Source: a virus
Length of the DNA stretch: 64,000 nt
IMG/VR virus record: IMGVR_UViG_3300025127_000022
Location: 12,276 to 76,275 of that record
Reading direction: 5' to 3' (one strand)
The stretch's first letter is position 1; each line of letters opens with the position of its first letter. The notes beneath the pieces were generated by a model. The model searched no databases, was not told where the DNA came from, and saw only the letters and a program-made list of their open reading frames with translations. The position numbers were made by a program, and so were the translations under genes. Shown here piece after piece: positions 313-12,199 of the stretch.

Positions 313-516
313 TAAACTAGAAAGTTTTTCTCTTTCTTCTCTCATCCCATCCAAAGTCCACCCATCATAGTAACGTCCATGAGATATTTCTATAGTTAGT
401 TGATTTATCCTGTTTTTTATTTTGTTCTTTTCAATAGGACTTAACCCTTCTACCCAGGAAAGTAATTCACTTTTACTAGTAGAACGATATTCATCCCAAA
501 ATGTATCTTTATTCAT
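295..516 (-). CDS. hypothetical protein
   Basis: 73-aa ORF overlapping the end of the dCMP deaminase gene on the same strand. Confidence 0.6.
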   Translation of the reverse strand: MNKDTFWDEYRSTSKSELLSWVEGLSPIEKNKIKNRINQLTIEISHGRYYDGWTLDGMREEREKLSSLLSENI

Positions 517-964
517 CTTTTATAAATTTAACTTTTACACCACATTCATCAAACATTTGTTTAGAGATTTTCCACGATTCACCCCACTTGTGGTGTTTCC
601 AGTCGGGTTTAGGTGAATAAACTTCTTTAATTCCAGATTGGATTATAGCTCTTGCACAATCACAACAAGGAAAATATGTGACGTACATTTTACAACCATC
701 TAAAGATACACCATTTCTTCCTGCAGCATAAATAGCATTTCTTTCAGCATGTTCTACCCACATGTATTTTAATGGTTTTTCGTATCTTTTTTTAATGTCT
801 ACATTATCTAAGTCACAATTATTAGGTAAACCATTATATCCCATAGATTTTTCTCTATTATCTTGACCTACTATTACAGCTCCACATTTCCTATTAGGGT
901 CTCTAGACCATTTAGAAATATGATTCGCTAAGTCTAAAAATCTTTTATTCCAGTTAGTTGACAT
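509..964 (-). CDS. dCMP deaminase (ComEB family)
   Basis: S-x-D-P...GAVIV, GYNG, HAERNAI and PCxxC zinc motifs. Confidence 0.93.
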   Translation of the reverse strand: MSTNWNKRFLDLANHISKWSRDPNRKCGAVIVGQDNREKSMGYNGLPNNCDLDNVDIKKRYEKPLKYMWVEHAERNAIYAAGRNGVSLDGCKMYVTYFPCCDCARAIIQSGIKEVYSPKPDWKHHKWGESWKISKQMFDECGVKVKFIKDE

Positions 965-1307
965 TTTGATTATCTAATTTTTCTTCAATACGTTCTATTA
1001 AGTTTTTACAGTCTTCTATATCTGTATGAGTTTCTAATAGAGTATTAAATAAAGAATCGTTTTCCTCTTCATCTGGAAAACCGTTTTTATTTTTATCTAT
1101 TGGGTAAAATTTGTAAGGGATTGTATCCCAAGTACCATCTGACCATAAAATAATTTCTTCTTCTGTAAGAATTTTACACGTATCTTTTTTTACATTTTTA
1201 ACTATTTTTTCATGTGTGTTATCTTTTTTTTGATTTACACTACAAACATAAAAAATACCTATAAAAAATCCCCAGAATAATAAGGAACCTAATCTTTTTT
1301 TGTTCAT
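954..1307 (-). CDS. hypothetical membrane-anchored protein
   Basis: N-terminal hydrophobic segment; overlaps the start of the deaminase gene. Confidence 0.6.
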   Translation of the reverse strand: MNKKRLGSLLFWGFFIGIFYVCSVNQKKDNTHEKIVKNVKKDTCKILTEEEIILWSDGTWDTIPYKFYPIDKNKNGFPDEEENDSLFNTLLETHTDIEDCKNLIERIEEKLDNQNVN

Positions 1308-1398: not shown

Positions 1399-1406
1399 TA
1401 TTTATA
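1399..1406 (+). promoter_or_regulatory. TATTTATA late-type promoter motif for the 1422-7126 cassette
   Basis: Same motif precedes terL, protease, scaffold and about 20 other genes. Confidence 0.6.
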
Positions 1407-1418
1407 GTAAAACTTTAA

Positions 1419-1919
1419 TTGATGAAAAAATTCTTAATTTATTTTAATTTATTAGTATTTGTAACTTTATTTTGGGGTTGTGAAAAGGAAGACTTCGAAC
1501 CTATAGTTTACGATGCTACTGAAAGAAATCTAGAAGGTGTATGGGAAATGACTAGTTTTAAATTTAGAGAAATAAATCAATGTGCTGATGTTGAGGACTC
1601 CACACTTAATTTAGGTACAGTCGTTATTACTGATAAATTAGACTTCAACTCCATATACGGTACTAGAGATGAGGGTTATCCAGCTGAAATGAGATGGGGT
1701 AACAATGAAAACTCAGAACTAGAAGCAAACTCACTACTAGGGTGGGAATGGTGTGAAGAAAAACCTCTATGTAATATCACTTCCTTTGACTATGACTTAG
1801 AAGGTGACCAGTTAATAATAGGTAATGAAATTTGGTTAGTGACCACTTCATTTGCAGATATATTGGTATTAACCAATAGCCGTGGTACCCAATACAGAGA
1901 GTTAGTATTAGAGAAGTAA
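1419..1919 (+). CDS. lipoprotein, lipocalin-like (probable start 1422)
   Basis: Signal peptide II ending FWG-C followed by EKEDFE; LEGVW motif typical of Bacteroidota lipocalin-like lipoproteins. Confidence 0.7.
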   Translation: MMKKFLIYFNLLVFVTLFWGCEKEDFEPIVYDATERNLEGVWEMTSFKFREINQCADVEDSTLNLGTVVITDKLDFNSIYGTRDEGYPAEMRWGNNENSELEANSLLGWEWCEEKPLCNITSFDYDLEGDQLIIGNEIWLVTTSFADILVLTNSRGTQYRELVLEK

Positions 1920-2308
1920 TGGAAAAGTATATCTATAGAGCTAAATTAGAGAGAGTAATCGATGGTGACACTATTGATGCTCTTATCGATGTTGGTTTCG
2001 ATATCTGGGTCAAAAAACGAATTAGATACAAAGGCATTGATACTTGGGAATCTAGAACCAGAAACCTAGAAGAAAAGAAAAAAGGTTTAGCTGCGAAAAC
2101 TAGAAATCAACAATTATTGGAAGAGATAAGTTCTAAACCAGGATTCTTTAGACTAAAATCTTACGGTGTTGGAAAATACGGTAGGGTGTTAGGTGAAATT
2201 TTTATTTTAGATAAAGACGATAAACCTATTAGTATAAATGAAACATTAATAAAGGAGGGCCACGCCTATGTTTATGAAGGTGGTAAAAAAAAATTATTTA
2301 AAGGATGA
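1919..2308 (+). CDS. thermonuclease (SNase-like) nuclease
   Basis: RVIDGDTID, RIRxxGIDTxE, GKYGRVLG and EGHA motifs. Confidence 0.88.
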   Translation: MEKYIYRAKLERVIDGDTIDALIDVGFDIWVKKRIRYKGIDTWESRTRNLEEKKKGLAAKTRNQQLLEEISSKPGFFRLKSYGVGKYGRVLGEIFILDKDDKPISINETLIKEGHAYVYEGGKKKLFKG

Positions 2309-5300
2309 AAAAGTTACTATTCTTACTATGTTTAATACCAACTATCGTATTAGGACAAAGCAGTTGGTTTAATTTACAAATACAATATGATTTTTATGCA
2401 CCGTCAGAGTCTTCAGTTCTGATTAATGGTAATGGTGATACCGTACTCACGCATCAACCCACTCAACCATATGAGTTCTTTCAGACAATAGTATATGTAG
2501 ATTCTGGAGCATTTACCGTAAGTTTATATGATTCATTTGGAGATGGTTGGATAGACTTTAACCAAACAGATGTGTGGGTTAAAGTTTCAAATCAATGTCA
2601 AGGTTCTATACTAAATTTAGACGCAGCTTTTAATTTTACACAATTTGATACGGTAATAAACATATTACCTTGTCCCCCACCTATATTGGGGTGTACAGAT
2701 ACCATGGCTACAAATTATGACCCTACCGCTTATTTAGATGATGGAAGTTGTTCATATATTTTTGGTTGTACTGACCCCAATGCTGTTAACTACGACCCTA
2801 ATGCGGCGATAGAGTTAGAAGGTGATGTGGAAATATCTTCCTGTAATTCTATATGGACACAAAATTATTTTGGGATAAATTTAAATTTTTACAATTCAAA
2901 TTCTTCCGCTTTTTCTATAGGTGATAAAATTATTGTAGGTGGAATCGACTATTGGATTGACGCTATAGTACTCCCTACCAACTGTAACTCAAATGTAGCT
3001 TTAATTTATGTTGCTAATAGTCCATATGCTGTTGATGGTTCATGGACTTCTGTAGGTGGAGTGTTACAAAATCCAGTTGGGTTACAAGATAATTGGTCTA
3101 TTGGTGGTTGTTATTACAATCCAGGATGTACCAACCCTATGTATGTAGAATTTGACCCTAACGCTGATTTTGATGATGGTAGTTGTCAGACACTTGCAGT
3201 ATTTGGATGTACGGATAGTACCGCAATTAATTTTAATCCCTGGGCAGATAACGATAACGGTTCTTGTATTTTACCTCCTTCATGTGGTTTCACTGAGTTT
3301 GAATGTCAAGTTTCTCTTACTCTAGATAATTACCCAGGTGAGACTGGATGGTTAGTTACTGCGGATAATGGAACTACAGTAGATACTGTATATTATGTAC
3401 CACCAGGTTCATATAACTTTGGTCAGTCTGGAACTGTAGTTAATACAAATTTTTGTGTACCAGCGAATCTTAGTACATTTATAACTTTTACTTTAACAGA
3501 TTCTTACGGTGACGGTTTAGCTGGAACTACTACTGGTGGTACTGTTGATGGTGATGTTATAGTTGAAAATATTTCATGTGGTGACACTATATTTGAGTTA
3601 CCTAACCCGTCTTTTGGTAGTTCAGTTTCTAGTGATGGGACGTACTCTAGTCCATGGCCTATGTTATGTAACGGGTTGTTAATAGTTCCTGGATGTATGG
3701 ACCCACAATATCAAGAATATAATCCTTTAGCTACCAATGACGACGGAAGTTGTCAAACATTACACATTTACGGATGTATGGATACCACATCATTTAACTA
3801 TGATTCAAACGCTACTTCTCCAGCTTACATTAGTCCTACACAATATCAAGTAATTTTAGAAGATGACGGAGGTGATGGATGGGGGAATTCCTTTATTGGT
3901 TTACGTCAAGGGAATCAATTATGGGATTTTAAATTAGACCCAGGAGTTTTCGTAGATACATTCTATATTGATTTAACTGTAGACGTATATCAAACACCTT
4001 TAGAGATGTTTTATTTCGAAATACCTTTACCACAACAAAACCCGTCTCAGCTCCAAATTCAAACTATTCAAAATTCAGTTGTGGTTAAAAATGATTATGG
4101 GACAATAATAGAAGAAGGGACTTACCCTTGGGCTAATGGAAATAAACTGAAAAATTTTAATGGTCCTCAGGACATATACAACGCTATTCCTTTTGGTGGG
4201 TATGATTGTACACCCAAAATTTATGGTTGTACAGATTCTACCGCACATGTAGATTCTTATAATCCTAACGCTAATACAGATGATGGTTCATGTTTTTATA
4301 ATCCTGAATGTAACAATGCAGGATTTGTTGAATTTTGGGAGGCTGATTCTACAGTGGTAGATTATTGGAGCATAGATTACTGTTACACTACTGCTATTTT
4401 TGGTTGTACTGACAGTACAATGTTTAATTATAATTCTTTAGCAAATGTAGATAATGGTTCTTGTATTCCATATATCTACGGTTGTACGGACCCTACAATG
4501 TTTAATTATAATTCACAAGCAAATGTAGATGATAGTAGTTGTGTACCTTTCACTTATGGTTGTACTGACCCTACGATGTTTAATTATGACCCAGTTGCTA
4601 ATGTAGATGATGGTACTTGTATACCATATGTGTATGGTTGTACTGATAGTACAATGTGGAATTACGACCCCTTAGCAAATACCGATAATGGGAGTTGTCA
4701 ACCATATGTTTACGGGTGTATGGACCCTAATGCGTTTAATTATAATCCTTTAGCTAATACTAATCAGGTATCCGCTAACGACTTCTCCAACCCTTGTGTC
4801 CCAGTAATTTATGGTTGTACAGATTCAACAGCATTTAACTACGACTCTAATGCTAATACAGATGATGGTTCATGTATAATAACTGTTTACGGGTGTACAG
4901 ATGTTACTGCGTATAATTATTTACCTACCGCTAATACAGATGATGGTAGTTGTTTATATGACGCTGGTTGTATAGATGGTCCTGGTGTACCTTATTGGTT
5001 GAATGACACTTGTTACGCTTGGGTTATTTCAGTAGACCCTTATTGTTGTAACAATGTGTGGGACTCCTTTTGTCAAGCAGAATATAATTTCTGTCAAGAT
5101 GGTACTCCATTAAATCTAGATGAAGTAGAAGATAATGGACGTAAAATTATAGTCTACCCTAACCCAACACAAGAACTTATTAATATAAAACATAACTTAA
5201 AAACTAATGTAATAGTAGAAATTAGAGATATGATGGGTAAATTAGTTACCACTTCTACTAATCAAAATAAAATTGATGTATCATTTTTATCTAGAGGTTT

Positions 5301-5361
5301 ATATAACCTAACTATTAAATCTGATGAAATTATAGTAACTAAAAGAATTATTAAACAATGA
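2305..5361 (+). CDS. secreted repeat protein with T9SS type-A C-terminal sorting domain
   Basis: Sec signal peptide; about 14 GC(T/M)DxxxxNYxxxANxDDGSC repeats; C-terminus VYPNP...IRDMMGK...IDVSFLSRGLYNL...KRIIKQ. Confidence 0.85.
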   Translation: MKKLLFLLCLIPTIVLGQSSWFNLQIQYDFYAPSESSVLINGNGDTVLTHQPTQPYEFFQTIVYVDSGAFTVSLYDSFGDGWIDFNQTDVWVKVSNQCQGSILNLDAAFNFTQFDTVINILPCPPPILGCTDTMATNYDPTAYLDDGSCSYIFGCTDPNAVNYDPNAAIELEGDVEISSCNSIWTQNYFGINLNFYNSNSSAFSIGDKIIVGGIDYWIDAIVLPTNCNSNVALIYVANSPYAVDGSWTSVGGVLQNPVGLQDNWSIGGCYYNPGCTNPMYVEFDPNADFDDGSCQTLAVFGCTDSTAINFNPWADNDNGSCILPPSCGFTEFECQVSLTLDNYPGETGWLVTADNGTTVDTVYYVPPGSYNFGQSGTVVNTNFCVPANLSTFITFTLTDSYGDGLAGTTTGGTVDGDVIVENISCGDTIFELPNPSFGSSVSSDGTYSSPWPMLCNGLLIVPGCMDPQYQEYNPLATNDDGSCQTLHIYGCMDTTSFNYDSNATSPAYISPTQYQVILEDDGGDGWGNSFIGLRQGNQLWDFKLDPGVFVDTFYIDLTVDVYQTPLEMFYFEIPLPQQNPSQLQIQTIQNSVVVKNDYGTIIEEGTYPWANGNKLKNFNGPQDIYNAIPFGGYDCTPKIYGCTDSTAHVDSYNPNANTDDGSCFYNPECNNAGFVEFWEADSTVVDYWSIDYCYTTAIFGCTDSTMFNYNSLANVDNGSCIPYIYGCTDPTMFNYNSQANVDDSSCVPFTYGCTDPTMFNYDPVANVDDGTCIPYVYGCTDSTMWNYDPLANTDNGSCQPYVYGCMDPNAFNYNPLANTNQVSANDFSNPCVPVIYGCTDSTAFNYDSNANTDDGSCIITVYGCTDVTAYNYLPTANTDDGSCLYDAGCIDGPGVPYWLNDTCYAWVISVDPYCCNNVWDSFCQAEYNFCQDGTPLNLDEVEDNGRKIIVYPNPTQELINIKHNLKTNVIVEIRDMMGKLVTTSTNQNKIDVSFLSRGLYNLTIKSDEIIVTKRIIKQ
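4400..4955 (+). repeat. coding tandem repeat, about 78-nt (26-aa) period
   Basis: Recurrent ggttgtac(t/a/g)ga...tttaatta...gc(t/a)aat...gat(g/a)atgg units. Confidence 0.85.
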
Positions 5362-6443
5362 AAAAATTATTAGTAATCTTATTATTAACTCCGATTGTTT
5401 TATTGGGGCAAACAGAAAAAAACTCTGTTAAAAAAGAACCTTCTAAATTTTCAAAAGAAGTAAAACGTGTATTTAAGTACTCAACATTTTACGCCGCGAT
5501 GAATGGTAGTAATTCGATTTCAGATGGGGACTTATATACGATTACCCCACAAGGTCAACTATCTTATGATAGAGAACAAACACCTTTTGACTTTTCTATT
5601 GCTTTAGGAATTAGAAAACGTGCAAGATTCGGATATGAAAATAGAGCTAATACATTTTATGATGGGACTGAAAAATCATTAAGTGACGCATCTACCATAG
5701 GTAAGGTTAAAGGATTTGAATACCTAGCTGAAATAGACTATAGAAGATTGTTAGGTGAAAATTACCTAAATCAACATTATTTTTTAAGATATGTAGCTAA
5801 ACACTGGTTAGCCAAAGTGGAATATTTAGAAAATAATTTTACTGATATCAGTTTTTATGAAGCATCACAAAGATATAGATACAACGTAAATAATAAATTA
5901 TCTTTTAATCTTGGTTTAGTACAAAGAATTTCTGCCCCTTATGGTTATGACCCAGTAGAAGAATGGTTAATAGAAAATGATTACGCCGACTACACCTATC
6001 TAGCACAAGAAGAAGGTTATAGTTTTGACCCTAACAATGGTAATTATTACAATGCTGATGGTACTTTAGTTGCCACTAGTAGTGCAGTTTTTGAAAATAC
6101 AGTAATACCTACAGTGATTAGTGACTATAGTAGACGTAAAAGGGGTGAAATACCATCACAGTGGTCTCACTCTTTAATTATAGGTGGTGATTACTACCAC
6201 TTTACAGATGATTTTTGGACCCACGCTTGGATTAACGTATTACCATATCATTTAGATATTGGGAAAGATTACTCTTACCACCGTTTTAATGAAAATAAAA
6301 ATTGGATAGATTATGGTGGAGGTTTAATTTTTGGTTGGAGAATAACTAAAAGTTTAGGAATCTTCCTTGAAGGAAACTACACGAAGTATTGGAATCGTGA
6401 GTGGCATGATTTTAAGGTGGGTGCTAACTATATTATATTTTAA
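5358..6443 (+). CDS. putative outer-membrane beta-barrel protein
   Basis: Signal peptide, aromatic-rich alternating strands, C-terminal FKVGANYIIF ending in Phe (BAM beta-signal-like). Confidence 0.65.
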   Translation: MKKLLVILLLTPIVLLGQTEKNSVKKEPSKFSKEVKRVFKYSTFYAAMNGSNSISDGDLYTITPQGQLSYDREQTPFDFSIALGIRKRARFGYENRANTFYDGTEKSLSDASTIGKVKGFEYLAEIDYRRLLGENYLNQHYFLRYVAKHWLAKVEYLENNFTDISFYEASQRYRYNVNNKLSFNLGLVQRISAPYGYDPVEEWLIENDYADYTYLAQEEGYSFDPNNGNYYNADGTLVATSSAVFENTVIPTVISDYSRRKRGEIPSQWSHSLIIGGDYYHFTDDFWTHAWINVLPYHLDIGKDYSYHRFNENKNWIDYGGGLIFGWRITKSLGIFLEGNYTKYWNREWHDFKVGANYIIF

Positions 6444-6457
6444 TACATAATTTAACA

Positions 6458-6748
6458 ATGACAAAAGAATTAAATGAAGACACATCGTTTAAAGTCAGTA
6501 TTAAGACTTTAATTGCGATTGCAGCAGGAATAGCAACTGTGGTGGGAATGTGGTTTGCACTACAAGCTGATATAGAAGAAGCTAAAAAATTACCTGTACT
6601 AGAAATACCAGAACCCGAAGTTACTAGAATGGAATTTGACATGAAAGACCAATTAATTAGACAAACTATCATGACAACCCAACAAGATGTTGAAGAAATA
6701 AAGGAGGATTTAAAACGAATCGAGGAAAAACTGGATAAACTTAGATAA
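6458..6748 (+). CDS. single-TM coiled-coil membrane protein
   Basis: TM LIAIAAGIATVVGMWFAL followed by a heptad-like C-terminus. Confidence 0.65.
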   Translation: MTKELNEDTSFKVSIKTLIAIAAGIATVVGMWFALQADIEEAKKLPVLEIPEPEVTRMEFDMKDQLIRQTIMTTQQDVEEIKEDLKRIEEKLDKLR

Positions 6749-6760
6749 CCTAACTAATTA

Positions 6761-7126
6761 ATGAAAACTTTTAAAATCTTATCTGCTTTAATATTAACAT
6801 TAATGTGTTTTACCGCACAAGCACAAAGTAAAATGAATAAAATTCCTCAGTATGGGGTAGTGGTGGTAGAATTTAACGCTGGATGGAATTCCTCTAAAAA
6901 TGTTACTTGGATTAACAAGTTAAAAGAGGCAGAAGTGGGGAGACTCTTGATAGACGAAAATCCTAAATTCCAATCAAAATATAAAATAGTGGTTGTGCCG
7001 ACTCTAATAGTCTTTAAAGATGGTGTGGAAGTGCAAAGATTCCAAGCTAATATTATGATGGACATGGAAGCTACTTTAGAAGATGTTCAAGAGGGTGTGG
7101 ATGATGCACACATGGAAGGATTTTAA
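6761..7126 (+). CDS. exported thioredoxin-fold protein lacking CxxC
   Basis: Signal peptide; VVVEFNAGWN replaces FxAxWCxxC; YKIxxVPTLIVFKDG cis-Pro motif. Confidence 0.75.
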   Translation: MKTFKILSALILTLMCFTAQAQSKMNKIPQYGVVVVEFNAGWNSSKNVTWINKLKEAEVGRLLIDENPKFQSKYKIVVVPTLIVFKDGVEVQRFQANIMMDMEATLEDVQEGVDDAHMEGF

Positions 7127-7365
7127 CGTCTAAAACCTTTTATTTCAGTTCTAGTTCCCATTCCAATCATAGTATTAATAAAATTAATCCTTTCTTCTAT
7201 TTTGTTCTTAGCGATTTGTAAAATTTCTAAATCAAATTCTGAGTCTACCCAATTTACAAAATCCTCACTACTAAAAGAAGCTTCATAATTTGTCAAATCG
7301 ACCTCTTCTTCTATTTTATTTAGAAGTTTTTGATACTGGTGTTCTGTTAAAATAACTTTAGACAT
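7123..7365 (-). CDS. small protein with class-A leader
   Basis: MSKVILTEHQYQKLL; minus-strand TATTTATA at 7382-7389. Confidence 0.7.
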   Translation of the reverse strand: MSKVILTEHQYQKLLNKIEEEVDLTNYEASFSSEDFVNWVDSEFDLEILQIAKNKIEERINFINTMIGMGTRTEIKGFRR

Positions 7366-8120: not shown

Positions 8121-9128
8121 TTAATTACTAAGAGGTGCTTTAATCGGTGAGTGTGGGTTATAGTTTTCGAGAGACACTTCAGCGTATCCTAGTAACAAAT
8201 CTAGATTACCTACCTTAACGTTTGGTAACTCCATAGGTTCTCTACTTAATTGTTCCTTAGCTTGTTCAAGATGATTGTTATATAAATGTACATCACCTAA
8301 ATTTCCTATTAATTCACCTGGTACCATATTAACTTCTTTAGCGATTAATTTTAAAAGTAACCCATAAGATGCTATGTTGAATGGTAAACCTAAAAAGGTA
8401 TCTACAGAACGTTGGTTCCACATTAATGATAATATTCTTTTAGGTACTCTTAAAGAATCTAATTTAATGTGTGAATCTACATCATGTTCACAAAATTCCT
8501 GTCTTTCTTTTAGACTTAACTCTCTTGTATAAACTTGAAATCCATAATGACATGGTGGGAGAGTCATTTTATCTAGTTCACTCACATTCCATGCGTTAAC
8601 CATTAATCGTCTACTGTCTGGATTTGTTTGAAGTTCCTTTATAAGATTTTTGATTTGGTCAACAGAAGATTTGACATTAGGAAATGAGCCTTCATCAATT
8701 AATTGGTTATCGTATTTATCCCAATTCCTCCATTGTTTACCATACACTGGACCTAAATCACCCCACTTCTTTGCGAACTCACCATCTGTTTTTATTGCAT
8801 CAATGAATTCTGGTTGTGTCATCGTAGGGTAGGGATATGGAGATTCTTGACAATAAGCCTTATATGCGTCACCATCCCAAATATGACAATTGTTATCAAC
8901 AAGATATTTGATGTTTGTATCACCACGTAAGAACCATAATAATTCTGTCACAATTCCTTTCCAATACATTTTCTTTGTTGTTAGTAATGGAAAACCATTT
9001 TTCATATTATGTCTCACCGTGTAACCAAATATAGATTTGGTTCCTGTGCCTGTTCTGTCTTCTTTATCCACACCATACTCCAGTATAGTTTTAAGTAATT
9101 CTTGATATTGTTTATCTAAGTTGTTCAT
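8121..9128 (-). CDS. thyA: thymidylate synthase
   Basis: DRTGTGT, FPLLTTKK, LGPVYGKQWR, LPPCH, QRSVDxxLGLPFN and HLYxNH motifs. Confidence 0.97.
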   Translation of the reverse strand: MNNLDKQYQELLKTILEYGVDKEDRTGTGTKSIFGYTVRHNMKNGFPLLTTKKMYWKGIVTELLWFLRGDTNIKYLVDNNCHIWDGDAYKAYCQESPYPYPTMTQPEFIDAIKTDGEFAKKWGDLGPVYGKQWRNWDKYDNQLIDEGSFPNVKSSVDQIKNLIKELQTNPDSRRLMVNAWNVSELDKMTLPPCHYGFQVYTRELSLKERQEFCEHDVDSHIKLDSLRVPKRILSLMWNQRSVDTFLGLPFNIASYGLLLKLIAKEVNMVPGELIGNLGDVHLYNNHLEQAKEQLSREPMELPNVKVGNLDLLLGYAEVSLENYNPHSPIKAPLSN

Positions 9129-11347: not shown

Positions 11348-12199
11348 ATGAAAAAGTTACTCCTCGTACTACTATTGTTAGTACCATTTCTAGCTAAAAC
11401 TCAATGTAATAACGGAACAAATTATTATCCATCTTCAATATACACCCCAACACCTGATACTTGGGGGTATGCCTCTACATGTAACTGGGCAGGAGAAGTA
11501 ATGAGAATGAATATTGTATCAGGAGACTCATATCAATTTTCTACTTGTGATAATTATGGAGGTGTGCTTGCAAGCTATGATACACAAATCACTTTACGTG
11601 ATGGTAGTGGTACATTATTAGCATATAATGATGACTTTTCTGGTTGTTCTGGGTTTTCATCTTACTTGAATTGGACAGCAACTTATACAGGTGTATTATA
11701 TGTTCATTTGAATGAATACAATTGTGCAACAAATATGGTATGTACAAGAATAATGGTATACCGAACAGAACCTATATCATTACCTATTACATTACATTAC
11801 TTTGATGCATTTCACATAGACAATATCGATAATACAATTCAAATAGAATGGATAACATATTCTGAACAAAACAATGATTATTTCACCGTATTAAAATCTT
11901 ATGATGGATATGAATGGTCTGAATTATGTAAGGTACCTGGTGCTGGAAATTCTAATATGGAATTATCATATTCAGTAAGAGATACAAATCCTCGACCAGG
12001 TGTACAATATTACAAATTACGACAAACCGATTATGATGGGCAGTGGGAAGAATTCGATGTTGTATCAGTAATAATCAAAACAGAACGTAAAGAAATTGTA
12101 AGAGCTTACAATCAAATGGGTCAAGAAGTTGGTATAGATACTAAAGGCCTCTTATTTCTAGTGTGGGATAATGGTGATGTAACAAAAATTATAAACTAA
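11348..12199 (+). CDS. secreted Bacteroidota-type protein with probable short T9SS-like C-terminal domain
   Basis: Signal peptide; PPC-like YQFSTC...DTQITL...AYNDD; LPITLxYF...IEWxTxSExNNDYF...YYKLRQTDYDG domain; YNQMGQEV...G..TKII end. Confidence 0.7.
   Translation: MKKLLLVLLLLVPFLAKTQCNNGTNYYPSSIYTPTPDTWGYASTCNWAGEVMRMNIVSGDSYQFSTCDNYGGVLASYDTQITLRDGSGTLLAYNDDFSGCSGFSSYLNWTATYTGVLYVHLNEYNCATNMVCTRIMVYRTEPISLPITLHYFDAFHIDNIDNTIQIEWITYSEQNNDYFTVLKSYDGYEWSELCKVPGAGNSNMELSYSVRDTNPRPGVQYYKLRQTDYDGQWEEFDVVSVIIKTERKEIVRAYNQMGQEVGIDTKGLLFLVWDNGDVTKIIN

What the first reader, a model, noticed from the sequence alone, without database searches (positions are those of the whole stretch)
1419..7126. 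Phage-borne envelope cassette that depends on the host T9SS, BAM and lipoprotein export
Seen: six tightly packed genes behind one TATTTATA motif: a lipoprotein with a C-E-K-E-D surface-export-like signal, an SNase nuclease, a 1018-aa Cys/Asp repeat protein with a type-A T9SS CTD, a predicted outer-membrane barrel, a TM coiled-coil protein and an exported redox-inactive thioredoxin fold. Known: T9SS CTDs route proteins to the Bacteroidota cell surface. Inference: a dedicated surface-display module (adhesin, barrel, anchor, folding helper) that remodels the infected cell for superinfection exclusion, aggregation with new hosts, or grazer avoidance.
Basis: partly seen in the sequence, partly recalled or inferred. 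Interest (0 to 1): 0.7.

Follow-up and report, generated by a model that had tools for sequence, protein, structure and literature searches.

The report
Phage envelope trio plus T9SS cargo
A large uncultured marine phage carries an operon joining a conserved, phage-only set of three envelope proteins (outer-membrane barrel, inner-membrane coiled coil, inactive thioredoxin), which in related phages sits beside the lysis genes, to a big cysteine-repeat protein tagged for the host's type IX secretion system; none of them has been tested experimentally.

Summary
All six genes are present as described. The T9SS type A tail, the outer-membrane barrel fold, the TM coiled coil and the Cys-less thioredoxin fold were each confirmed with tools.

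The unit is four genes, not six. REP, BAR, TMC and TRX co-occur on one strand in about 70 of 81 related phage loci whose flanks differ. The lipoprotein occurs only in near-identical relatives, and the SNase in 26 of 81 loci.

The "dedicated display machine" reading is only partly supported:
- Near-complete 50-72-kb phage genomes carry TMC-TRX-BAR, or a long TMC plus BAR, with no T9SS-tailed gene anywhere.
- In those genomes the set lies 0.1-1.1 kb from a holin, or 1.5-1.8 kb from a lysozyme.
- BAR is not PorP/SprF-like.

My best reading (about 0.45) is a lysis-linked, envelope-spanning trio, possibly a spanin substitute, with REP as a lineage-specific T9SS-exported add-on. REP's repeats also occur in virion fibre proteins.

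This scan has already found the same module in at least seven other genomes, and my independent tests agree with those follow-ups. Phage T9SS cargo (Bellas 2020) and phage barrel proteins (a 2026 preprint) are published. I found no paper on the trio.

The parts
1399..1406 (+). TATTTATA motif, a candidate phage (late-type) promoter element ahead of the operon
   Evidence: The window holds 23 copies against 14.1 expected. By my reading, about 16 lie shortly upstream of same-strand gene starts, including genes next to the head genes. That it acts as a promoter is inferred by analogy with the T4 late promoter TATAAATA (my knowledge).
1419..1919 (+). g1: predicted lipoprotein (L-F-W-G-C lipobox, then E-K-E-D). 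The start is probably the ATG at 1422. It is a lineage-restricted passenger, not part of the conserved set.
   Evidence: Searches give no family. One search finds only 6 protein clusters, all at least 53% identical. It is absent from the 80 related loci.
1919..2308 (+). g2: SNase-fold endonuclease without a signal peptide. A frequent but optional neighbour of the module.
   Evidence: PF00565 at 34.3 bits and phrog_452 at 2e-36. Present in 26 of 81 loci.
2305..5361 (+). g3 REP: Sec signal peptide; three beta-sandwich domains (aa 19-125, 330-445, 510-625); about 11-13 Cys repeats; a Cys-rich helical domain (aa 895-945); a T9SS type A CTD.
   Evidence: There are 68 loci with homologues, all with signal peptides.
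5146..5358 (+). T9SS type A C-terminal sorting domain of REP (aa 948-1018), ending K-R-I-I-K-Q
   Evidence: TIGR04183 47.6 bits and PF18962 51.7 bits. phmmer match to 8glj_D at E 0.0033. Structural match to 8glk_D: TM 0.81, rmsd 2.2; Z 9.9.
5358..6443 (+). g4 BAR: signal peptide plus a 12-14-stranded outer-membrane beta-barrel with a helical insert of about 70 aa (aa 193-267), a highly conserved low-confidence loop (aa 89-105) and a C-terminal aromatic residue
   Evidence: AlphaFold pLDDT 75, pTM 0.66. Tsx Z 14.1, EstA 14.0, KdgM 13.6. Foldseek NanC 1e-7. At least 3479 clusters, all from metagenomes or viruses and with no Pfam domain.
6458..6748 (+). g5 TMC: bitopic inner-membrane protein with a short cytoplasmic N-terminus, a Gly/Ala-rich TM segment (aa 17-35), a Pro-rich linker and a periplasmic coiled coil of about 45 aa
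   Evidence: The family has at least 8000 clusters at 70-83% identity, all unnamed. phrog_736 at 1.5e-4.
6761..7126 (+). g6 TRX: secreted thioredoxin-fold protein lacking the CxxC active site throughout the family
   Evidence: PF00085 24.0 bits and TIGR01068 at 8.8e-8. A 64-sequence alignment shows E-W-N-x-x-N in place of W-C-G-P-C with the cis-Pro loop kept.

Best explanation
The stretch is one tightly packed operon of a T4-like jumbo phage of a T9SS-bearing (Flavobacteriia-type) host. It joins two separable things.

(1) A phage-specific envelope trio:
- BAR is exported by Sec and inserted by BAM as an outer-membrane barrel.
- TMC is anchored N-in in the inner membrane and extends a Pro-rich linker and a coiled coil into the periplasm.
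- TRX is a secreted, redox-dead thioredoxin fold.

I infer that the three form a complex bridging the inner and outer membranes, with TRX as a periplasmic adaptor or spacer. I infer that it acts at the end of infection, together with holin and endolysin, to breach or control the outer membrane. That would make it a functional counterpart of two-component spanins in which an integral barrel replaces the lipoprotein partner.

(2) REP is a large disulfide-rich protein built from beta-sandwich domains and the same Cys repeats that marine phages use in virion fibre proteins. It is exported by Sec and then by the host T9SS through its type A tail, so it is displayed on or released from the infected cell. 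REP is a lineage-specific addition placed inside the trio's operon, not its reason for existing.

g1 (lipoprotein) and g2 (SNase) are local passengers.

Shown: the folds, the targeting signals, the conservation and the synteny. Inferred: complex formation, timing, the link to lysis and REP's role.
For: Co-occurrence:
- BAR is in 81 of 81 loci, TRX in 71, REP in 68 and TMC in 67. All lie on one strand, nearly always as TMC-TRX-REP with BAR directly before or after, while the flanking genes differ.

The trio stands without REP:
- The P0153 lineage has TMC-TRX-BAR.
- Its genomes G006-G008 and G010, rated 97-100% complete, contain no PF18962 match, whereas the control genome G001 contains one.

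Lysis linkage:
- A phrog_3427 holin (2.5e-26) lies 0.1-1.1 kb downstream of BAR in 50 of 73 P0153-lineage loci.
- A phrog_7 lysozyme lies 1.5-1.8 kb upstream of TMC-BAR in 5 P0288-lineage loci.
- A holin or an M15/phrog_894 endolysin lies within 5 kb of the module in 51 of 81 loci of the window's clade.
- The window's own contig has the M15 endolysin 5.8 kb upstream of g1.

Architecture fits a bridge:
- TMC has an N-in TM segment plus a periplasmic coiled coil.
- BAR has an outer-membrane barrel fold.
- In the lineage that lacks TRX, the periplasmic part of TMC is about twice as long (about 125 aa against about 60 aa).

Phage-only and abundant:
- BAR has at least 3479 clusters and TMC at least 8000. 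None comes from cultured bacteria; the only genome hits are misbinned MAG contigs.

REP export signals.

REP repeats also occur in non-secreted giant phage proteins and in Synechococcus phage S-CAM3 gp232, annotated as a virion structural protein.
Against: - No experiment exists for any member.
- No interaction was modelled, because no multimer tool was available.
- PHROG matches of TMC to Rz-like spanins are insignificant (E 0.067-0.094).
- In this window the module is flanked by ORFs that look, by eye only, like nucleotide-metabolism genes. No holin of the phrog_3427 type was found in the 76-kb contig, which is only about 23% of the genome.
- TMC is unusually conserved (70-83% identity across phages), whereas known spanins diverge fast. 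That hints instead at binding to a conserved host machine.
- In this lineage REP is almost always wedged between TRX and BAR, which suggests a functional tie that the lysis model does not explain.
- I did not systematically exclude canonical spanins in these genomes.
Confidence: 0.45

Rival explanations
1. This is the first reader's model: a dedicated surface-display machine. REP is the payload. BAR is its outer-membrane anchor or shuttle, analogous to PorP/SprF barrels encoded next to type B cargo. TRX is a periplasmic holdase for the 45-Cys cargo, and TMC is an inner-membrane tether. The purpose would be superinfection exclusion, receptor masking or aggregation.
For: - In the window's clade REP is nearly always contiguous with the trio, often between TRX and BAR.
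- T9SS biology has a precedent of cargo genes linked to cognate barrel shuttles or anchors (PMC9143113, PMC12618676).
- REP is very rich in disulfide-forming Cys.
- REP's repeats are shared with fibre proteins.
Against: - Near-complete phage genomes have the trio, or TMC-BAR, with no T9SS-tailed gene. The trio therefore has a REP-independent job.
- BAR gives no PF11751 match, either in 74 homologues or in the six-frame contig.
- BAR has no Cys and so lacks the twin-Cys tail reported for SprF (PMC12635249, abstract and section headings only).
- REP's tail is type A, which uses the host PorV rather than a private shuttle.
- REP tail types switch about 7 times on the BAR tree, including between close BAR relatives.
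Confidence: 0.2
2. The trio is a superinfection-exclusion or receptor-interference device unrelated to lysis. The phage barrel would bind or crowd a host receptor or envelope machine, as reported for lambda Lom blocking LamB. TMC and TRX would couple it to the inner membrane.
For: - Phage barrel proteins are common in large phages, and receptor interference has been proposed for them (bioRxiv 10.64898/2026.10.24.761521).
- The extreme conservation of TMC fits binding to a conserved host component.
- BAR carries a conserved helical insert of about 70 aa and a conserved loop.
Against: - The set lies consistently next to a holin or endolysin in three lineages.
- Exclusion genes are usually variable, early and accessory, whereas this set behaves like a core late gene set.
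- There is no PADLOC match.
Confidence: 0.15
3. There is no joint function. The genes are neighbours only because exported-protein genes accumulate in one hypervariable late region. BAR might be a solute or nucleoside channel (Tsx-like auxiliary gene).
For: - The top structural match is the nucleoside channel Tsx, Z 14.1.
- The region between the module genes is a hotspot for small variable ORFs.
Against: - The order TMC-TRX-(REP)-BAR is kept across phages with different head genes.
- The barrel matches are generic 12-stranded folds with 6-15% identity.
- Co-retention of three genes across lineages at 26-36% BAR identity is hard to explain by chance.
Confidence: 0.1

Closest known systems
Phage-encoded T9SS type A cargo of 'Cryophage' (Bellas et al. 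2020, Nat Commun, PMC7468147)
   Same: A phage gene with a Sec signal and a type A T9SS sorting domain, highly variable between phage variants, and presumed to hijack the host secretion system.
   Different: The Cryophage cargoes are enzymes or PA14 proteins in a glacier phage, and no conserved partner genes are described. Here the cargo is a Cys-repeat, fibre-like protein embedded in a conserved barrel / coiled-coil / dead-thioredoxin set, and about 40% of its homologues carry a shorter, unclassified tail.
Two-component spanins (lambda Rz/Rz1, T4 PseT.3/PseT.2)
   Same: An inner-membrane protein with an N-terminal TM segment and a periplasmic coiled coil, plus an outer-membrane partner, encoded near holin and endolysin. 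Together the parts could span the periplasm.
   Different: The outer-membrane partner is an integral beta-barrel of about 350 aa, not a small lipoprotein. A third, thioredoxin-fold component is usually present. There is no significant sequence match to spanin families. The function is untested.
PorP/SprF-like barrels encoded next to type B T9SS cargo (Gorasia 2022, PMC9143113; Paillat 2025, PMC12618676)
   Same: An outer-membrane barrel gene directly adjacent to a T9SS cargo gene. In this window REP and BAR overlap by 4 nt.
   Different: There is no PF11751 match. The cargo tail is type A, not type B. There is no Cys tail. The barrel also occurs in phages with no T9SS cargo.
Phage-encoded outer-membrane beta-barrels (lambda Lom; cyanophage Phage_OMP PF24653/IPR056410; survey by Yuan and Chen 2026, bioRxiv 10.64898/2026.10.24.761521)
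   Same: A signal-peptide-bearing barrel encoded by a large phage, with envelope-related neighbours.
   Different: BAR matches none of those families by sequence. It has 12-14 strands rather than 8 (Lom) or 6+6 (the cyanophage family). That survey does not mention T9SS or a thioredoxin partner.

Membership tests
T9SS type A cargo (TIGR04183 / PF18962) | N-terminal Sec signal peptide | tested here: met
   REP begins M-K-K-L-L-F-L-L-C-L-I-P-T-I-V-L-G-Q. All complete homologues begin the same way. This is by sequence inspection; no SignalP run was available.
T9SS type A cargo (TIGR04183 / PF18962) | C-terminal domain scores above the curated cut-off and lies at the extreme C-terminus | tested here: met
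   TIGR04183 47.6 bits (cut-off 23) and PF18962 51.7 bits (cut-off 27), covering aa 950-1018 of 1018.
T9SS type A cargo (TIGR04183 / PF18962) | Beta-sandwich CTD fold like solved substrate CTDs | tested here: met
   8glk_D TM 0.81, rmsd 2.2, 31% identity. Z 9.9 for 8glk_D, 9.1 for 8glj_D, 9.0 for 8gl8_D and 8.4 for the RgpB CTD.
T9SS type A cargo (TIGR04183 / PF18962) | Secretion depends on the host T9SS (SprA/PorV) | not testable with these tools
   The host is uncultured. This needs expression in wild-type and T9SS-null Flavobacterium.
PorP/SprF T9SS shuttle/anchor barrels (PF11751) | Sequence match to PF11751 | tested here: not met
   No hit at E up to 5 in 74 BAR homologues. No hit at E up to 10 in the six-frame contig.
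PorP/SprF T9SS shuttle/anchor barrels (PF11751) | Partner cargo carries a type B CTD (TIGR04131) | tested here: not met
   REP's tail is type A. The NCBIfam scans returned no TIGR04131 match for REP or for the alternative-tail homologues.
PorP/SprF T9SS shuttle/anchor barrels (PF11751) | Twin-cysteine C-tail for disulfide coupling to GldK (feature taken from the abstract and section headings of PMC12635249; text not read) | tested here: not met
   BAR has no Cys, and the family consensus has none.
Two-component spanin | i-spanin: N-in TM segment plus periplasmic coiled coil | tested here: met
   TMC has a TM segment at aa 17-35 (mean hydropathy 2.1), a Lys-bearing N-terminal side, and an acidic coiled coil after a Pro-rich linker.
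Two-component spanin | o-spanin: small outer-membrane lipoprotein with a lipobox, encoded within or next to the i-spanin gene | tested here: not met
   The gene after TMC is TRX, which in the family has a signal peptide without a lipobox Cys. The outer-membrane partner candidate is an integral barrel.
Two-component spanin | Located in the lysis cassette | tested here: inconclusive
   Met in relatives: a holin 0.1-1.1 kb away in 50 of 73 loci, a lysozyme 1.5-1.8 kb away in 5 loci, and either one within 5 kb in 51 of 81 loci. In this window the endolysin is 5.8 kb away and no holin was found in the partial contig.
Two-component spanin | Sequence membership in a spanin family | tested here: inconclusive
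   Only PHROG Rz-like hits at E 0.067 and 0.094.
Thioredoxin (PF00085) | Thioredoxin fold match | tested here: met
   PF00085 24.0 bits (cut-off 23.5). TIGR01068 E 8.8e-8, below its own cut-off.
Thioredoxin (PF00085) | CxxC redox active site | tested here: not met
   W-N-S-S-K in the window and E-W-N-x-x-N in the 64-sequence family. The mature protein has no Cys.
Staphylococcal nuclease (PF00565) | Domain match above the cut-off | tested here: met
   34.3 bits (cut-off 21) and phrog_452 at 2e-36.
Cyanophage Phage_OMP (PF24653) and Lom/Ail 8-stranded barrels | Sequence match, or an 8-stranded or 6+6 barrel | tested here: not met
   Neither family appeared in the Pfam scan of 74 homologues at E up to 5. 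The model has 12-14 strands. The language-model neighbour list merely includes a PF24653 cluster at 0.92.

The most novel reading that the evidence does not exclude
BAR, TMC and TRX are a previously unrecognised outer-membrane-breaching (spanin-replacing) machine of marine Bacteroidota phages. It would be built on a BAM-inserted barrel tethered to an inner-membrane coiled coil through a dead thioredoxin. In some lineages the phage additionally loads the host T9SS with a fibre-like Cys-repeat protein that works with this machine, for example by coating the dying cell and its debris so that progeny are not lost to re-adsorption.
Probability: 0.3. Interest if true: 0.8.

Novelty: new variant of a known kind. 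Interest (0 to 1): 0.6.

Why it matters
For most phages of Bacteroidota it is unknown how the outer membrane is breached at lysis, and about 15% of phages of Gram-negative hosts have no recognisable spanin (abstract of bioRxiv 10.1101/515445, seen).

A phage-only three-protein set would be a strong candidate for that missing step, or for another core manipulation of the host envelope. The set has thousands of homologues in ocean metagenomes. It sits beside holins and endolysins in at least three barrel lineages, and within the window's own lineage it occurs in phages with and without a T4-type head gene.

The attached T9SS cargo shows that large marine phages routinely use a host secretion system. 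That bears on how infected flavobacterial cells interact with particles, neighbouring cells and other phages.

All parts are small, expressible proteins, so the idea can be tested directly in Flavobacterium johnsoniae or in marine isolates.

Tried and rejected
- Cultured relatives: megablast of 20 kb and tblastn of BAR and TMC against 50,697 phage records found nothing. REP matched only through its Cys repeat.
- BAR families: Pfam, NCBIfam and PHROGs gave no family. There was no PorP/SprF match.
- Defence families: PADLOC gave none.
- Bacterial origin: rejected. A scan of one genome for each of 185,579 species returned only 7 loci, all on MAG contigs of incongruent taxa (Nitrosopelagicus, Rickettsiales, Parvibaculum and others), which I read as misbinned phage DNA.
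- Shared promoter motif: TATTTATA does not precede the module genes in the other loci. The motif is specific to this phage.
- The alternative REP tail (...I-T-D-L-L-G-R-P...D-D-G-T-V-E-K-K): no NCBIfam hit, and hhalign against the type A tail gave only E 0.013 over the last strands. Homology is suggestive but not shown.
- Tail type versus BAR phylogeny: about 7 switches, at least 2 forced by supported branches. This gives no evidence of BAR-tail co-adaptation.
Two single-protein scans and one alignment scan found nothing before P0288 and P0153 worked.
- The giant proteins upstream of BAR gave no Pfam hit.
- The sigma-70 promoter and terminator scans were below chance.
- REP's three N-terminal beta-sandwich domains were not assigned.

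Full report
**Observation**

They overlap by 1-4 nt or are separated by 12-14 nt, and a convergent gene closes the unit at 7123-7365. TATTTATA lies at 1399-1406, 15 nt before the ATG at 1422. The window holds 23 copies against 14.1 +/- 3.9 expected. By my reading, about 16 of them sit within 100 nt upstream of a same-strand ORF start. I read the motif as a phage promoter element comparable to the T4 late TATAAATA; this is inference from my own knowledge.

The window is phage DNA. It contains a terminase large subunit, a portal protein and a T4-type major head protein. The nearest cultured head proteins are from Microcystis phage Mel-JY01, Flavobacterium phage immuto and Rhodothermus phage RM378, at 36-43% identity. 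The 76-kb contig is rated 23% complete, and an identical copy of g1 lies on a 270-kb contig. This is therefore a jumbo phage.

**The six proteins**

- **g1** has a signal peptide ending L-F-W-G-C, followed by E-K-E-D, and matches no family.
- **g2** is an SNase-fold endonuclease (PF00565 at 34.3 bits, phrog_452 at 2e-36) with no signal peptide.
- **g3 (REP, 1018 aa)** has a signal peptide and 46 Cys, with about 11-13 units of roughly 26 aa (G-C-x-D...N-Y...A...D-D-G-S-C).
  - Its type A T9SS sorting domain covers aa 950-1018: TIGR04183 47.6 bits and PF18962 51.7 bits.
  - The AlphaFold model (pLDDT 71) shows three beta-sandwich domains, the repeat string, a small Cys-rich helical domain and a CTD.
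  - The CTD superposes on substrate CTDs solved inside the F. johnsoniae translocon: 8glk_D TM 0.81, rmsd 2.2, 31% identity (Z 9.9), and also 8glj_D, 8gl8_D and RgpB.
- **g4 (BAR)** has no sequence family. Its model (pLDDT 75, pTM 0.66) is a transmembrane barrel. The best matches are Tsx Z 14.1, the EstA autotransporter barrel 14.0, KdgM 13.6 and NalP 12.7; PorV scores only 8.8. BAR ends N-Y-I-I-F and contains no Cys.
- **g5 (TMC)** has one TM segment (aa 17-35), a Pro-rich linker and a coiled coil.
- **g6 (TRX)** is a secreted thioredoxin fold (PF00085 24.0 bits against a cut-off of 23.5). Its W-C-G-P-C motif is replaced by E-W-N-x-x-N across 64 homologues, while the cis-Pro loop is kept.

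**What the unit is**

A scan of IMG/VR with BAR returned 147 relatives, of which 80 loci were kept. After ORF calling and clustering, the four largest clusters were BAR (81 of 81 loci), TRX (71), REP (68) and TMC (67). The shortfalls are mostly at contig ends. The SNase was in 26 loci and g1 in none, and the window's flanking genes recurred only in L001.

The order is almost always TMC-TRX-REP, with BAR directly before TMC or after REP, all on one strand.

The families are large: at least 3479 BAR clusters and at least 8000 TMC clusters at 90% identity. They are confined to marine metagenomes and viral contigs. In one genome for each of 185,579 species, the only hits are MAG contigs of incongruent taxonomy, which I take to be misbinned phage DNA.

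Four complete 120-kb carriers lack a T4-type head protein, while a 147-kb carrier has one. The module has therefore moved between phage groups.

**Separating the trio from the cargo**

Earlier notes of this scan report the same module in at least seven other genomes and say the trio can occur without cargo. I tested that claim. Two distant BAR lineages, at 26-36% identity, were fetched.

- **P0153 lineage.** The order is TMC-TRX-BAR, with no Cys-repeat or P-N-P-tailed protein within 6 kb. Four genomes rated 97-100% complete (52-72 kb) have no PF18962 match anywhere.
- **P0288 lineage.** A longer TMC of 214-233 aa directly precedes BAR. It has an extra cytoplasmic domain, a TM segment and a periplasmic coiled coil of about 125 aa, and one member reaches PF24073 (DUF7365) at 27.2 bits. 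There is no TRX. Three genomes rated 94-100% complete have no PF18962 match, while the 120-kb control genome has exactly one.

BAR and TRX therefore cannot be a dedicated anchor or folding helper for REP.

**Lysis context**

- In the P0153 lineage, a phrog_3427 holin (2.5e-26) lies 0.1-1.1 kb downstream of BAR in 50 of 73 loci with enough sequence.
- In the P0288 lineage, a phrog_7 lysozyme lies 1.5-1.8 kb upstream in 5 loci.
- In the window's clade, a phrog_3427 holin or an M15 (phrog_894) or phrog_3000-type endolysin lies within 5 kb of the module in 51 of 81 loci.
- In the window's own contig, the M15 endolysin is 5.8 kb upstream of g1. No holin of that family was found in the partial contig.

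**Mechanism**

The features that are shown suggest a complex bridging the envelope:

- an N-in inner-membrane protein with a periplasmic coiled coil;
- a secreted globular thioredoxin fold;
- an integral outer-membrane barrel with a very conserved but poorly modelled loop (aa 89-105) and a helical insert;
- persistent adjacency to holin and endolysin;
- a doubling of the TMC periplasmic length where TRX is missing.

I infer that the complex acts at or controls the last step of lysis, like spanins, but with a barrel in place of the lipoprotein partner. My confidence is about 0.45.

Several points count against this. The PHROG spanin hits are insignificant. TMC is far more conserved than spanins usually are, which could instead mean that it binds a conserved host machine. 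I did not exclude canonical spanins in these genomes.

**REP**

REP is a Sec- and T9SS-exported protein. Its Cys repeat also occurs in non-secreted giant proteins encoded upstream of BAR in other phages, and in Synechococcus phage S-CAM3 gp232, annotated as a virion structural protein in a row of structural genes. Its closest predicted-structure relatives are viral, and one is already named a secretion-system sorting-domain protein.

Only 32 of 54 complete homologues have a recognised type A tail. The rest carry a shorter conserved tail with no family and only weak similarity to the last CTD strands. On the BAR tree, type A is ancestral and the short tail arises in one subclade, with about 7 switches.

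What REP does after export is unknown. Display of a fibre-like binder on the dying cell, whether as a decoy, for receptor masking or for adhesion, is speculation.

**Comparison with what is known**

- Phage-borne T9SS cargo was reported once, for "Cryophage", where it was called a unique occurrence (PMC7468147).
- Phage outer-membrane barrels were surveyed in a 2026 preprint that mentions neither T9SS nor thioredoxin.
- Cargo genes linked to barrel shuttles are a T9SS paradigm for type B tails (PMC9143113, PMC12618676). BAR fails the sequence, tail-type and twin-Cys criteria.
- I found no paper describing the barrel / coiled-coil / dead-thioredoxin trio.

**Verdict**

This is a new variant of known kinds (phage envelope and lysis accessories, and phage T9SS cargo). 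It is abundant and untested, and this scan has already flagged it on other DNA.

Noticed in passing
window 954-1307 (-): A divergently transcribed 117-aa protein has an N-terminal hydrophobic segment. Its C-terminal helix shares a motif (D-I/V-E...R-I-E-E-K-L-D) with the C-terminus of TMC: 46% identity over 26 aa, pairwise E 6e-6, and TMC HMM E 3e-5. It may be a TMC-like paralogue or a partner.
   Followed up: partly
L010, L028, L030, L033-L037, L042, L047, L054, L055, L060-L062, L066, L069, L070, L072, L074-L077, L080 (REP homologues): About 40% of REP homologues end in a conserved tail of about 50 aa (G-P-L-P-K-R...I-T-D-L-L-G-R-P...Y-D-D-G-T-V-E-K-K) instead of a recognised T9SS CTD. The tail has no family and may be a shortened or novel sorting signal.
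   Followed up: partly
L088-L101 (e.g. L090:6373-7074, L092:4997-5641): In a TRX-less lineage the TMC homologue is 214-233 aa. It has an extra cytoplasmic N-terminal domain of about 70 aa and a periplasmic coiled coil twice as long. One member reaches Pfam DUF7365 (PF24073) at the cut-off.
   Followed up: partly
L041:3398-8095, L007:5105-9610, L031:4770-6050; S-CAM3 NC_031906.1 36382-37932: The REP Cys repeat also occurs in large proteins without signal peptides encoded upstream of BAR, and in a cyanophage virion structural protein. It therefore looks like a fibre or adhesin building block shared among marine phages.
   Followed up: partly
G001-G004 (records of L008, L009, L011, L025) versus G005 (L048): Complete 120-kb carriers of the four-gene module lack a T4-type major head protein, whereas the window's phage and a 147-kb carrier have one. 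The module therefore occurs in at least two unrelated phage groups.
   Followed up: partly
window 11348-12199 (+): Another ORF (283 aa) begins with a Bacteroidota-style signal peptide (M-K-K-L-L-L-V-L-L-L-L-V-P-F-L-A-K-T-Q-C). It may be a further exported phage protein.
   Followed up: no
window 509-964 (-) and 8121-9128 (-): By eye, the ORFs flanking the operon look like a dCMP deaminase and a thymidylate synthase. In this phage the envelope operon would then sit among nucleotide-metabolism genes rather than in a lysis block. This was not checked with any tool.
   Followed up: no
loci L004-L080, between BAR, TMC, TRX and REP: Small variable genes are repeatedly inserted inside the module: 2-TM proteins of about 70 aa, a tail-anchored coiled-coil protein of 69 aa, a Zn-ribbon-like protein of 59 aa, and tandem copies of a protein of about 130 aa. 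The region behaves as a hotspot.
   Followed up: no
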